Below, piece after piece: positions 60,027 to 64,000 of a stretch of DNA of 64,000 nt. The notes under the pieces were generated by a model, which did not search any database, was not told the origin of the DNA, and was given only the letters and a program-made list of their open reading frames with translations. The position numbers and the translations under genes were made by a program. Position 1 is the first letter of the stretch. Every line of letters starts with the position of its first letter. Origin of the DNA: the human T2T-CHM13v2.0 reference genome, Homo sapiens; the NCBI RefSeq assembly GCF_009914755.1, contig NC_060943.1. One strand, given 5' to 3'.

Positions 60027-60362
60027 TACTGCGCTCTGAGGACGAGGAGCTGGGAAGAGGACTCCCGTGCCTAGAGGAGCCAACATCCAGAGGTCTTGGC
60101 GGGGAGGCCACTGTCTAATATCCCTCCATGAGTGCTTGCAGACCAAGGAAAGCAGTGGAGAGGAGCTGGTTCAGCTCCCCAGAGGCACTGGAGGTGGTGG
60201 GGGCTGCAGGTCACTGGGGGAGCCTCGGAAGGTGAAACTGGCTCCCCGTTCCTGATGGCCCTGCCCGGCTGGCCTACCAGGAAGGCTGCCTGGCTGCTGG
60301 CGTGAGGTCTCTGAGCCCCACGCCCTTTCCAGGGGAAGGGTCATCTTGGTGGGTGGGCGGCA

Positions 60363-60480
60363 ATGAGCGTGGGCCCTCTCAGCCCGAGTACCCGCCGGCG
60401 GCTTCTGCGGGGTGAAGCCGGCCCCCTCCCAGCACCTCCACCCAGCGGTGTGACCATCTTCATCAGTTCCACAGTCTCAG
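60363..60480 (+). CDS. NWD1: Candidate first coding exon of NWD1 (start of a DUF4062/TIR-like domain)
   Basis: ggcggcaATGa (purine at -3); 39 codons plus 1 nt ending VTIFISSTVS; consensus donor CAG|gtaagg; possible acceptor cgccctttccag at 60332/60333. Motif resembles the NWD2/TEP1/NPHP3-type 'R(V/I)FISSTF.D' strand. Confidence 0.7.
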
Positions 60481-63400
60481 GTAAGGTGCAGGGTATGGAT
60501 GGGGGCTCAGAGGCAGGTTGGCACGCTCAGGCGGTGTCAGGGCAATGGGCACAGCTCATGGAGTCCTTTAAGAGACCTAGACATGAACCAAGTACTGTGT
60601 TTCACGCCTGTAATCCCAGCACTTTGGGAGGCTGAGGCGGGTGGATCACTTGAGGTCAAGAGTTGAAGACCAACCTGGGCAACATGGCGAAACCCTGTCT
60701 CTACTAAAAATACAAAAAATTAGCTGGGCGTAGTGGTGGGTGCCTGTAATCCCAGCTACTTGAGAGGCTGAGGCAGGAGAATCCCTGAACCTGGGAGGCA
60801 GAGGTTGCAGTGAGCCAAGATCGCGCCATAGCACTCCAGCCTGAGCAACAGAGCAAGACTCTGTCTCAAGAAACAAAATAAACCAAAAACTCAAAAAGGA
60901 GATATTAGATAATAGCATGCAGCTACACAGCACTGCCTAACTCCACATTCAGTGAAGTCAGTTGGCAACTTGATATTAACCAGGGTGGAGCATTTAAACC
61001 ACGGAAATTGGCAGAAAATACAAATCGGATTTAAAAAAATTTGTTTTGGAGAACAGAGTATTATGGAACATTTGCTGGGTCACTGCTCTTTTTTTTTTTT
61101 TTTTTTTCTGAGATGGAGTCTCACTCTGTCGCCCAGGCTGGAGTGCAGTGGTGCGATCTGGACTCACTATTACCTCTGTCTCCCAGGTTCAAGGGATTCT
61201 CCTGCCTCAGCCTCCTGAGCAGCTGAGATTACAGCCACCTGCCACCATGTCTGACTAATTTTTGTATTTTTAGTAGAGATGGGGTTTCACCATGCTGACC
61301 AGGCTGGTGTCAAACTCCTGACCTCAGGTCATCTGCCCCACTCAGCCTCCCAAAGTGCTGGGATTACAGGCGTGAGCCACCATGCCTGGCCACACCACTC
61401 CATGTATATGTGCTCTCATAGAAATTACATCCTGGTTCGGGGAATGGACACATAAATTAAGTAATTGCAGGCCGGGTGCAGTGGCTCACACCTGTAATCC
61501 CAGCACTTTGGGAGGCCGAGGCGGGCGAATCACGAGGTCAGGAGATTGAGACCATCCTGGCTAACACAGTGAAACCCTGTCTCTACTAAAAATACAAAAA
61601 ATTAGCTAGGCGTGGTGGCGGGCGCCTGTAGCCCCAGCTGCTCGGGAGGCTGAGGCAAGAGAATGGCGTGAACCCAGGAGGCGGAGCTTGCAGCGAGCCG
61701 AGATCATGCCACTGCACTCCAGCCTGGGCAACAGAGCATGACTCCATCTCAAAAAAAAAAAAAAAAAAAAATAAGTAATTGCAGCTTGTGGGCCAGGTGT
61801 GGTGGTTCACACCTGCAATCCCAGCACATTGGGAGGCCGAGGTGGGAGAATTGGGAAACCTCTATGATGTGAATGCAGCTCAGGTAGTGACTCATGTGGG
61901 AGCCTCCTGGACCCTCTGTTTCCTCCTCGAGAAGCCAGACTGAGAACCCAACTTGATAGAGTTGCTGTGAGTGGCATACGATGTTACAACTAATATTTAT
62001 GACCAATGTACTGTGTGTCAGGCTTAAAAACTGCCAGAACCTTGCCACAGCTGCATGGCCCTGTGTGACCGGACCCTGCTCACCTCCCCAACCTTATCTC
62101 ATGTGGTCACTCCCTTGTCTACCTGTCATATCCACACCAGAATCCATAGATCCGGGAACCCACAAGGCCCTGGGGCCCATATCAGGACTATCACTCTCAC
62201 GGTTCCCTCTTCTCCTTCTTATTCTGATCCTTTGGGTCTCAGTGCAAACACCCCGTCTTCAGGGAGCCCTTCTCTGCCCCTCGATGTAAAGTAGATTTGT
62301 CCCTCTGAAGTGGGCAGATTGCTTGAGCTCAGGAGTTCAAGACCAGCCTGAGCAACATGGCGAGGCCCCATCTTTACAAAAAGTAAAAAAAAAAAAAAAA
62401 TAGGCTGGGTGCAGTGGCTCACACCTGTAATCCCGGTACTTTAGGGGGCCGAGGCACCTGAGGTGAGGAGTTTGAGACCAGCGTGGCCAACATGGTGAAA
62501 CCCCGTCTCTACTAAAAATACAAAAATTAGCCCAGTGTGGTGGTGTGCGCCTGTAATCCCAGCTACTCAGGAGGCTGAGGCAGGAGAATCCCTTGAATCT
62601 GGTAGGCGGAGGTTGCAGTGAGCCGAGATTGTGCCACTGCATTCAAGCCTGGGCACAGAGCGAGACTCTGTCTCAAAAAATAAAAAAAGAGAAAAGAAAA
62701 GAAAGAGAGAGAGAAGGAAGGAAGGAAGGAAGGAAGGAAAGAAGGAAAAGAAAGAAAGATTTGTCCCTGTTATTCTCTAGCCCAGCCCACCCGTGTGTTT
62801 TCAATAGCACTCTTCACAAACTGCAAGTACTTTTTAAAACTATTTATGGGCCGGGCGCAGTGGCTCACGCCTGTGATCCCAGCACTTTGGGAGGCCGAGG
62901 TGGGCAGATCACAAGGTCAGGAGATTGAAACCATCCTGGCCAACATGATGAAACCCCATCTCTACTAAAACACAAAAAATTAGCCAGGTGTGGTGGTGCA
63001 CGCCTGTAATCCCAGCTACTTGGGAGGCTGAGGCAGGGGAATTGCTTGAACCCAGGAGGCAGAGGTTGCAGTGAGCTGAGATCACGCCACTGCACTCCAG
63101 CCTGGTGACAGAGTAAGACTTCGTCTCAAAAAACAAACTAACAAAAAAACAAAAAAAAAACCCAAAATCTATTTATGTATTTATTTATTGTGCCCCTTGG
63201 TTAAGCATAAGGGGTACAATGGCAAACAAGATATAATCCACTGGTCACAGTGGCTCACTCCTGTAATCCCAGTGCTTTGAGAGGCCAAAGCAATTGGATT
63301 GCTTGAGCCTAGGAGTCTGAGGCCAGCCTAGAAAACATAGTGAGACTCCTTCTCTACAAAAAATTTAAAAAAATATATATGGCTGTGGTGGTGCCCCTCT

Positions 63401-63974
63401 ATAATCCCAGCTACTCAGGAGGCTGAGGTGGGAGGATTGACTGATGCTAGGAGTTTGAGGTTACAGTGAGCTATGATTGCACCACTGCCCTCCAGCCTGG
63501 GTGATGGAGTGAGACCTGTCCCTTAAAAAACATTTTTTTAAAAATATATACAGGGCTGGGTATGGTGGCTCATGTCTGTAATCCCAACACTTTGGGAGGC
63601 TGAGGTGGGAAGATGGCTTGAGTCCAGGAGTTCAAGACCAGCCTAGGAAACATAAGGAGACTCCACAAAATAAATAAAATAACTGCCTATTGCGATTTTT
63701 TTTATTTTTCTTTCTTTCTTTTTTTTTTTTTTTTTGAGATGGTGGCAGCAGATGAGGCTTTAGCCGCAGGCCAGGCGCAGTGGCTCACGCCTGTAATCCC
63801 AACACTTTGGGAGGCAGAGGAGAGAGAATCTCTTGAGGCCAGGAACTCGAGACCAGCCTGGGCAACATAGCGAGATCCCATTCTCCACAAAAAAGGGGAA
63901 AAAAGACAAAAGTAAATCAATAAAATAAAAGCAGAGCTATGAGGCTGGGAAGAGTTCTGAGTCCTTTCCACTAA

Positions 63975-64000
63975 TACCCTCCATGCCCTTCCTTGCAGAT
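63975..64000 (+). other. NWD1: Splice acceptor and first two bases (AT, 63999-64000) of the next NWD1 exon
   Basis: Branch-point-like cactaat followed by ccctccatgcccttccttgcag|AT. Confidence 0.7.

What the first reader, a model, noticed from the sequence alone, without database searches (positions are those of the whole stretch)
60333..64000. Hidden coding exon that supplies the first strand of NWD1's DUF4062/TIR-like effector domain
Seen: a CpG-rich unique patch with an ATG in good context (60363), the peptide MSVGPLSPSTRRRLLRGEAGPLPAPPPSGVTIFISSTVS, and a consensus CAG|GTAAGG donor in phase 1. The acceptor at 63998 starts AT, so the join gives G|AT = Asp, i.e. IFISSTVS-D. Known: DUF4062-type N-terminal domains of NWD2, TEP1 and NPHP3 begin with 'R(V/I)FISS(T)F.D...ER..L', a strand resembling TIR-fold beta-A. 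NWD2, as I recall it, has a similar 'LRRAAFSG..LP...SVRVFIS' lead-in. Recalled and not visible here: the reference human NWD1 protein starts MQRGKPCRALPTLKCQTFC inside the next exon and lacks this strand. Inference: this exon is the ancestral coding start, completing a TIR-like-NACHT-WD40 (STAND/NLR-like) architecture with an intact effector domain.
Basis: partly seen in the sequence, partly recalled or inferred. Interest (0 to 1): 0.9.

Follow-up and report, generated by a model that had tools for sequence, protein, structure and literature searches.

The report
Stranded ancestral first exon of NWD1
This is the old first coding exon of the human NWD1 gene, intact and annotated as coding in other mammals, but one extra base in the next exon breaks the human reading frame, so it cannot complete the protein's TIR-like front domain.

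Summary
The sequence observation is right. There is an ATG at 60363, then 39 codons ending IFISSTVS, then a CAG|GTAAGG donor in phase 1. The join to the annotated exon at 63999 makes Asp.

The same peptide is the annotated N-terminus of NWD1 in 24 of 131 fetched protein models, from 17 mammals. There it supplies the start of DUF4062 and aligns with the start of the solved TEP1 TIR-like domain.

The frame entered from this exon is not the annotated frame. It reads MDAEREALQSTAYPEV, as in other mammals, then stops inside that same exon, giving a 67-codon ORF. Orthologue proteins, including chimpanzee and siamang, match human frame 1 up to AYPEV and frame 2 from QTFC onward, one base apart. So the human reference carries a one-base frame break, and the annotated start MQRGK... 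is an out-of-frame ATG.

The exon is a stranded relic. It explains the N-terminal truncation of human NWD1 that two 2026 preprints note without giving a cause. RefSeq does not annotate it. Transcription and population frequency were not testable here.

The parts
60333..60362 (+). 30 bases between a candidate acceptor (ccctttccag|G at 60332/60333) and the ATG. It is either 5' UTR of an internal exon or part of a first exon. Which one is undecided.
   Evidence: Sequence. There is an in-frame stop at 60312 upstream. No transcript evidence is available here.
60363..60480 (+). Relic lead coding exon of NWD1: ATG, 39 codons and the first base of a split Asp codon. In orthologues it encodes the lead-in and the IFISS segment that opens the DUF4062 (TIR-like) domain.
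   Evidence: translation; squirrel monkey P0089 residues 1-56 match at 94.6%, dog P0025 at 80.4% and mouse P0101 at 75.4%, all in frame 1; 24 of 131 models have it. Pfam match starts at the I of IFISS in deer; alignment with TEP1 chain 11gz_A.
60481..60486 (+). Consensus splice donor GTAAGG, phase 1.
60481..63998 (+). Intron between the relic exon and the annotated exon. Much of it is masked repeat (eight blocks between 60596 and 63938). The sequence from about 60596 looked Alu-like to me by eye, and no tool named it. It ends in ...ccttccttgcag.
63999..64000 (+). First two bases (AT) of the annotated 87-base exon (chr19:16865999-16866085). The rest lies beyond the window. That exon holds the conserved ATG (chr19:16866001), the annotated ATG (chr19:16866005, other frame), the frame break (about chr19:16866049, 49 bases past the window end) and the stop of the old frame (chr19:16866082-16866084).
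57173..57270 (+). Annotated 5' UTR exon that is spliced straight to 63999 in RefSeq transcripts, skipping the relic exon. It carries its own upstream ATGs.

Best explanation
60363-60480 is the ancestral lead coding exon of NWD1. In other mammals it is modelled as an alternative first coding exon. Its 39-40 residues end in (V/A)IFISST(V/I)S, the opening segment of the DUF4062 (also called NIR or TeTIR) TIR-like domain. It is spliced in phase 1 to the exon that continues D-MDAEREALQSTAYPEVQTFCQKHGLMFE.

In the human reference that next exon is 87 bases long and has one base too many between the codon for V of AYPEV and the codon for Q of QTFC. As a result, both old start codons (60363 and the conserved ATG two bases into the next exon) open dead-end ORFs of 67 and 27 codons. 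The NACHT-WD40 body can only be reached from an ATG four bases further on, in the other frame. That ATG gives 15 new residues (MQRGKPCRALPTLKC) before the old frame resumes.

The lead exon is therefore still intact in sequence but uncoupled from the protein. Human NWD1 lacks the first strand and nearly all of the first helix region of its TIR-like domain.

Shown: the exon, its orthology, the frame break, and the unbroken frame in all other models. Inferred: that the break arose on the human branch after the split from chimpanzee, that the exon is unproductive in people, and that the loss disables the domain.
For: -: the exon, ATG, donor and phase.
- annotated coding starts at chr19:16866005. 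Reading from 60363 stops within the next exon.
- (tblastn of orthologue N-termini against the human exons as they stand): P0089 residues 1-56 match bases 1-168 in frame 1 (94.6%) and residues 57-189 match bases 170-568 in frame 2 (91%). Chimpanzee P0092 residues 1-16 are in frame 1 and residues 17-166 in frame 2 (96%). Siamang P0087, dog P0025 and mouse P0101 show the same switch.
- 101 of 101 non-human models that have both motifs read D.ERE to VVDLRWG in one frame. The spacing is 27 residues in 100 and 28 in 1.
- 24 of 131 models carry the lead exon, 70 start at MD(A/T/V)ERE, and 11 have other upstream sequence.
- in the rows as displayed, Pfam PF13271 is listed for 21 of the 24 lead-exon models. 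It is listed for none of the 89 models that have the next exon but not the lead exon.
- deer P0004 matches DUF4062 at residues 32-98 with 25.4 bits, against a cut-off of 24.7.
- the best PDB match of P0004 is the TEP1 domain chain 11gz_A, E 1.3e-7, starting at RSVAIFISS / RSIRLFISS.
- the conserved ATG has G at -3 and G at +4. The annotated ATG has T at -3 and C at +4.
Against: - No ape DNA was available. The unbroken frame in chimpanzee and siamang rests on one protein model each (P0092, P0087).
- Bonobo (P0127, P0128) and orangutan (P0010) models start further downstream and say nothing about the frame.
- Two Old World monkey models (P0113, P0122) start with a human-like peptide and then skip residues. 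I read this as transfer of the human model, but it is not proof of an unbroken frame.
- No reads, CAGE or Ribo-seq were available, so transcription of the exon in people is unknown either way.
- Population frequency of the break is unknown. I saw one assembly plus RefSeq coding coordinates that fit it.
- The human pieces alone match no Pfam family and do not find TEP1, so homology of the human exon rests on its orthologues.
- Most models in other mammals (70 of 131) start after the lead exon. The long form may therefore be a minor isoform even where the frame is whole.
- GENCODE could not be consulted.
Confidence: 0.85

Rival explanations
1. One reading: in people this exon is the true coding start and yields a full TIR-like-NACHT-WD40 protein.
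For: The exon, ATG, donor and phase are intact. The join gives IFISSTVS-D followed by MDAEREAL, exactly as in orthologues.
Against: The frame runs into a stop after 67 codons, inside the next exon. The NACHT-WD40 body is in the other frame. No phase-0 consensus donor is available at the exon end.
Confidence: 0.03
2. The frame break is polymorphic. The reference carries the derived allele, and an unbroken allele still segregates, so some people make the long, complete protein from this exon.
For: The lead exon shows no decay: 36 of 39 residues are identical to squirrel monkey, and the ATG and donor are kept. That fits a recent break. No population data were seen.
Against: The RefSeq coding coordinates placed on T2T-CHM13 fit the broken frame without adjustment. 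The intactness is equally expected after only a few million years of neutral drift.
Confidence: 0.1
3. The exon is still transcribed and spliced in some human tissues. It then acts as a 5' exon that opens a 67-codon upstream ORF overlapping the annotated start. The effect would be to damp translation, mark the mRNA for decay, or yield a short peptide made of the first strand and helix region only.
For: There is a consensus donor, a plausible acceptor at 60332/60333 and an ATG with G at -3. The orthologous exon is used in a New World monkey model (P0089).
Against: None of the 10 RefSeq transcripts has this exon. No expression data were available here.
Confidence: 0.15
4. It is a chance open frame with a chance donor in an intron.
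For: The ORF is short (39 codons). The human peptide alone finds nothing meaningful in Pfam or PDB.
Against: The same 39-40 residues, without frame shifts or stops, begin NWD1 models in 17 mammals, with 75-95% identity to human over 56 residues.
Confidence: 0.01

Closest known systems
Lead coding exon of NWD1 long isoforms in other mammals. Examples: dog XP_022262624-6 = P0025, P0023, P0018; squirrel monkey isoform X3 = P0089; mouse UniRef entry = P0101.
   Same: Same position before the D-MDAEREAL exon and the same 39-40 residues. 36 of 39 are identical to squirrel monkey and 29 of 39 to dog.
   Different: In those species the frame runs on into the NACHT-WD40 body. In the human reference it stops after 67 codons. 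Human RefSeq has no such exon.
TIR-like (DUF4062 / NIR / TeTIR) domain of human TEP1: PDB chain 11gz_A, and the crystal structure described in bioRxiv 10.64898/2026.05.01.722283.
   Same: Deer NWD1 residues 28-97 align with chain residues 4-73 at E 1.3e-7. RSVAIFISSTVSDMDAERE lies over [19 protein letters not shown].
   Different: TEP1 is an active NADase, while full-length human NWD1 showed no activity (passages). If the 220-residue chain is residues 894-1113, the Arg reported at the active site (R908) lies over a Ser in NWD1. That numbering is my inference. The domain is internal in TEP1 and N-terminal in NWD1.
NWD2 first coding exon (chr4, L003).
   Same: It ends ...SVRVFISANPE followed by G|GTACGT. 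That is six codons after the F and in phase 1, as in NWD1's IFISSTVS followed by G|GTAAGG.
   Different: The lead-in before the strand is not alignable by eye. NWD2's exon borders were not in my annotation files, so its donor is inferred from the sequence.
TTC41P, the other human member of the family that has decayed (passages read).
   Same: It is a TIR-like-NACHT family gene disabled in people.
   Different: TTC41P is reported to have many stop codons throughout. NWD1 has one frame break near its start and keeps a long open frame from a new ATG.

Membership tests
DUF4062 / NIR / TeTIR TIR-like domain (Pfam PF13271) | Opening hydrophobic segment (V/I)FISS(T) matched to the start of the profile. 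| tested here: met
   Deer NWD1 P0004 residues 32-98 match profile positions 2-54 of 82. Residue 32 is the I of IFISS, which the lead exon encodes. It aligns with LFISST of TEP1 chain 11gz_A. The human exon encodes the same IFISSTVS.
DUF4062 / NIR / TeTIR TIR-like domain (Pfam PF13271) | Score above Pfam's gathering cut-off. | tested here: inconclusive
   Met for the orthologue with the lead exon (P0004: 25.4 bits against 24.7). PF13271 is listed for 21 of 24 lead-exon models and for none of 89 models without it (rows as displayed). The human pieces scanned apart gave 0 families.
DUF4062 / NIR / TeTIR TIR-like domain (Pfam PF13271) | One continuous reading frame through the first strand, first helix and second strand. 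| tested here: not met
   In human the frame switches between AYPEV and QTFC, and the old frame stops within the exon. 101 of 101 non-human models are continuous.
DUF4062 / NIR / TeTIR TIR-like domain (Pfam PF13271) | Catalytic glutamate about 100 residues into the domain. | not tested
   My alignments stop before it. The TeTIR preprint states that it is present in NWD1 (passage).
DUF4062 / NIR / TeTIR TIR-like domain (Pfam PF13271) | TIR-like fold with the first strand inside the sheet. | not testable with these tools
The preprint passages describe a TIR-like fold for TEP1 and the loss of an internal strand in the human NWD1 model.
DUF4062 / NIR / TeTIR TIR-like domain (Pfam PF13271) | NAD+ hydrolysis. 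| not testable with these tools
   In print, full-length human NWD1 is inactive. No long-isoform orthologue is reported as tested in the passages I read.
Annotated coding exon of human NWD1 | Present in a RefSeq transcript with a coding part. | tested here: not met
   None of the 10 NWD1 transcripts in RefSeq RS_2025_08 has an exon at 60333-60480. GENCODE was not available.
STAND / NLR-like architecture (N-terminal effector domain, NACHT, WD40) | NACHT and WD40 domains downstream in the same protein. | tested here: met
   Orthologues have NACHT (PF05729), HTH_NWD1 and WD40 families. In human these are reached only from the other frame.

The most novel reading that the evidence does not exclude
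The one-base frame break is fixed, or nearly fixed, in people and arose after the split from chimpanzee. That would make NWD1 a human-lineage remodelling of a TIR-like effector domain in a STAND protein. The long isoform that begins with this exon would be the signalling-competent, possibly NAD+-cleaving, form in other mammals. The negative enzyme assays on human NWD1 would then say nothing about the family.
Probability: 0.3. Interest if true: 0.75.

Novelty: new member of a known kind. Interest (0 to 1): 0.55.

Why it matters
Three 2026 preprints place NWD1 in a family of TIR-like NAD+-cleaving domains. Two of them remark that the human protein is truncated at its N-terminus, and one assayed full-length human NWD1 and found no activity. 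None of the three contains the words frameshift or exon.

The genomic cause proposed here has several consequences:
- It tells experimenters that human NWD1 is the wrong protein to test.
- It points to natural long isoforms (squirrel monkey, dog, bat, mouse) that carry the whole domain.
- It adds a candidate human-lineage change in an innate-immunity-like gene studied in brain and liver.
- It flags an annotation problem. The annotated human start is a weak ATG four bases after a strong, conserved, dead-end ATG, and the human model seems to have been copied onto eight other species' entries.

Tried and rejected
- Pfam on the human pieces taken apart (39, 27 and 39 residues) gave no family.
- PDB search with the human 39-residue peptide gave only two transketolase chains at E about 0.6, which I take for chance, and no TEP1. 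The 27-residue piece gave nothing.
- PDB search with a profile of 20 full-length proteins was swamped by WD40 chains (733 matches, best 60 all WD40-type) and told nothing about the N-domain. The single deer protein, which has no WD40 part, worked.
- The bacterial-type promoter and terminator scan found 0 sites and does not apply to a human gene.
- A CpG island as promoter evidence was rejected. CpG observed/expected of 0.54 over 148 bases is only a mild excess.
- A rescue by an alternative donor was considered. The only phase-0 GT near the exon end is AAG|GTGCAG, six bases downstream and weak by eye. Used with the annotated exon, it would keep the strand but replace the helix region with the new frame. 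I have no evidence for it.
- Paper searches for the cause: 'NWD1'+'frameshift' gave 17 papers. Going by their titles and the starts of their abstracts none looked relevant, and I read passages of one only. 'NWD1'+'human-specific' gave 4 papers, none on this. I read passages of one, which lists NWD1 in a 2016 selection scan. 'NWD1'+'truncated'+'N-terminus' gave 7 papers, of which only the NIR preprint is relevant. 'NWD1'/'pseudogene'/'human lineage' at 2 of 3 terms was badly designed: none of the 15 listed papers holds NWD1. 'NWD1'+'TIR-like' matched 3 papers, of which 2 were listed.
- Supplements were closed. The alignments in the preprints' supplementary figures may bear on the truncation.
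Full report
**The observation.** The window has an ATG at 60363, followed by 39 codons that translate to MSVGPLSPSTRRRLLRGEAGPLPAPPPSGVTIFISSTVS. One further base (G, 60480) follows, then GTAAGG. The annotated NWD1 exon begins at 63999 with AT, after a pyrimidine tract and AG. The patch lies between masked repeats and occurs once in the genome. 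Its CpG excess is mild: observed/expected is 0.54, against 0.30 for the surrounding 14 kb. None of the 10 RefSeq NWD1 transcripts has an exon here. They run from 57270, or from further upstream, straight to 63999, and coding starts at chr19:16866005, seven bases into that exon.

I fetched the following exons from the same genome and read them as they stand. Entered from the candidate exon, the next exon reads D, then MDAEREALQSTAYPEV, then PDLLPEARLDV and a stop. That is 67 codons in all, and the stop lies at the last full codon of that 87-base exon. The annotated protein, MQRGKPCRALPTLKCQTFCQRHGLMFE and onward into VVDLRWG, is the same DNA read one base further along. The exon therefore cannot complete the annotated protein.

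**Orthologues.** Three protein searches brought in 131 proteins: 130 mammalian or avian NWD1 models and one bacterial DUF4062 protein. They fall into these classes:
- 24 models from 17 species begin with the counterpart of this exon. The species are dog, two foxes, six bats, squirrel monkey, two mice, hamster, a singing mouse, shrew, red deer and gray whale. An example is the squirrel monkey's MSVGPLSPSTRRRLLRGEAGPLPAPPPSSVAIFISSTAS, which shares 36 of 39 residues with human.
- 70 start at MD(A/T/V)ERE, the ATG two bases into the next exon.
- 11 have other upstream sequence before that motif.
- 8 start with a human-like MQRGK-type peptide.
- 18 lack the region or are unrelated at the N-terminus.

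In all 101 non-human models that have both motifs, D.ERE and VVDLRWG lie in one frame. They are 27 residues apart in 100 models and 28 in one. These include chimpanzee (P0092), siamang (P0087), owl monkey, capuchin and squirrel monkey.

**Placing the break.** I ran tblastn of orthologue N-termini against the human exons as they stand.
- Squirrel monkey residues 1-56 match bases 1-168 in frame 1 (94.6% identity). Residues 57-189 match bases 170-568 in frame 2 (91%).
- Chimpanzee residues 1-16 and 17-166 (96%) behave the same way, as do siamang, dog and mouse.
- Adjacent residues are thus separated by one surplus base. It lies at the boundary between the codon for V of AYPEV and the codon for Q of QTFC, at about T2T chr19:16866049, 49 bases beyond the window end.
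- The first 15 residues of the annotated human protein are the old codons read out of frame. From Q16 on, the old frame resumes.

Chimpanzee and siamang are unbroken, so the simplest history puts the change on the human branch. This rests on protein models, not on ape DNA. The bonobo and orangutan models I have start too far downstream to tell.

**What the exon encodes.**
- Pfam places DUF4062 (PF13271) on deer NWD1 at residues 32-98, matching profile positions 2-54. Residue 32 is the I of IFISS. The score is 25.4 bits, just above the cut-off of 24.7.
- In the precomputed Pfam lists, as displayed, PF13271 appears for 21 of the 24 lead-exon models. It appears for none of the 89 models that have the next exon only. 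Recognition of the domain depends on this exon.
- The best PDB match of the deer protein is chain 11gz_A, 'Telomerase protein component 1', at E 1.3e-7. RSVAIFISSTVSDMDAEREAL lies over [21 protein letters not shown] at the start of the chain.
- Passages of bioRxiv 10.64898/2026.05.01.722283 say that DUF4062 is a family of TIR-like NADases and that the crystal structure of TEP1 residues 895-1113 has a canonical TIR-like fold. They also say that R908, R954 and R976 sit at the active site, and that full-length human NWD1, NWD2 and NPHP3 showed no NADase activity.
- If the 220-residue chain is residues 894-1113, R908 is the R of SSTFRD. It would lie over the last residue encoded by the NWD1 lead exon, a Ser. 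That numbering is my inference.
- NWD2's first coding exon in this genome reads ...LRRAAFSGNLTALPSHLVPAGRSVRVFISANPE and is followed by G|GTACGT. That is the same place and phase as in NWD1, which supports an old, shared exon structure. NWD2's exon borders were not in my files.

**What is already in print.**
[quoted passage not shown] The authors used Drosophila Nwd1 instead.
[quoted passage not shown] They also state that the catalytic glutamate is present in NWD1.
- The words frameshift and exon occur in none of the three preprints' main texts.
- My other searches found no paper on the cause. Supplements were closed.
- Mouse work treats the N-terminal region as the effector domain that binds PAICS (passages).

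**How it most likely works.**
- In other mammals there are two classes of models. A long form starts in this exon and has the whole TIR-like domain. A short form starts at MDAEREAL and lacks the first strand.
- In people the surplus base cuts both old starts off from the body of the protein.
- In the RefSeq Select (MANE-like) mRNA (NM_001007525.5) nine ATGs precede the annotated start. The last of them is the conserved ATG, in strong context (G at -3, G at +4), four bases before the annotated ATG, which is in weak context (T at -3, C at +4).
- I infer that much initiation is spent on a 27-codon dead end and that the full-length protein depends on leaky scanning. This is untested.
- If the relic exon is still spliced in, it would add a 67-codon upstream ORF.

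**Verdict.** Its homology to the opening of the DUF4062 / TIR-like domain holds. In the human reference, however, it is stranded by a one-base frame break in the next exon. It explains why human NWD1 is truncated rather than completing it. Whether it is still transcribed, and whether every person carries the break, could not be tested with the tools open here.

Noticed in passing
57173-57270: This annotated 5' UTR exon opens an ATG ORF (A at -3). Its peptide resembles the N-terminal extension of cat and lynx isoform X1 and pangolin NWD1 models (P0044, P0038, P0052). In human it ends inside the next exon after 46 codons.
   Followed up: partly
52654-53100, 57173-57270 and L001:999-1085: The RefSeq Select (MANE-like) NWD1 mRNA has nine ATGs before the annotated start. 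The annotated ATG is in the weakest context (T at -3, C at +4) and sits four bases after a conserved ATG in strong context that opens a 27-codon dead-end ORF.
   Followed up: partly
Proteins P0083, P0084, P0108, P0111, P0113, P0114, P0117, P0122: 8 of 131 public NWD1 models begin with a human-like out-of-frame peptide and then jump into the normal frame, with residues skipped. The species are lion, bushbaby, humpback whale (flagged low quality), snub-nosed monkey, mouse lemur, horse and red colobus. This looks like the human model copied onto genomes whose frame is unbroken.
   Followed up: partly
L003:326-476 (chr4, start of NWD2): NWD2's first coding exon seems to end at the same codon position and phase as the NWD1 lead exon: VFISANPE followed by G|GT, against IFISSTVS followed by G|GT. 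The donor is inferred from sequence only.
   Followed up: partly
60596-63938: The intron between the relic exon and the annotated exon is largely masked repeat, in eight blocks. The stretch from about 60596 looked Alu-like to me by eye.
   Followed up: no
NWD1 gene as a whole: A catalogue of modern-human changes lists NWD1 among the genes of a 2016 selection scan that carry high-frequency human missense changes (passage of PMC6560109). A UK Biobank paper reports a suggestive association of rare NWD1 variants with kidney calculus (passage of PMC12443626).
   Followed up: no
Proteins P0007, P0012, P0013 (rat): Three rat NWD1 fragments are named 'transmembrane protein 38a (predicted)' in their source. 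This appears to be a read-through naming from the neighbouring gene TMEM38A, which also lies upstream in this window.
   Followed up: no
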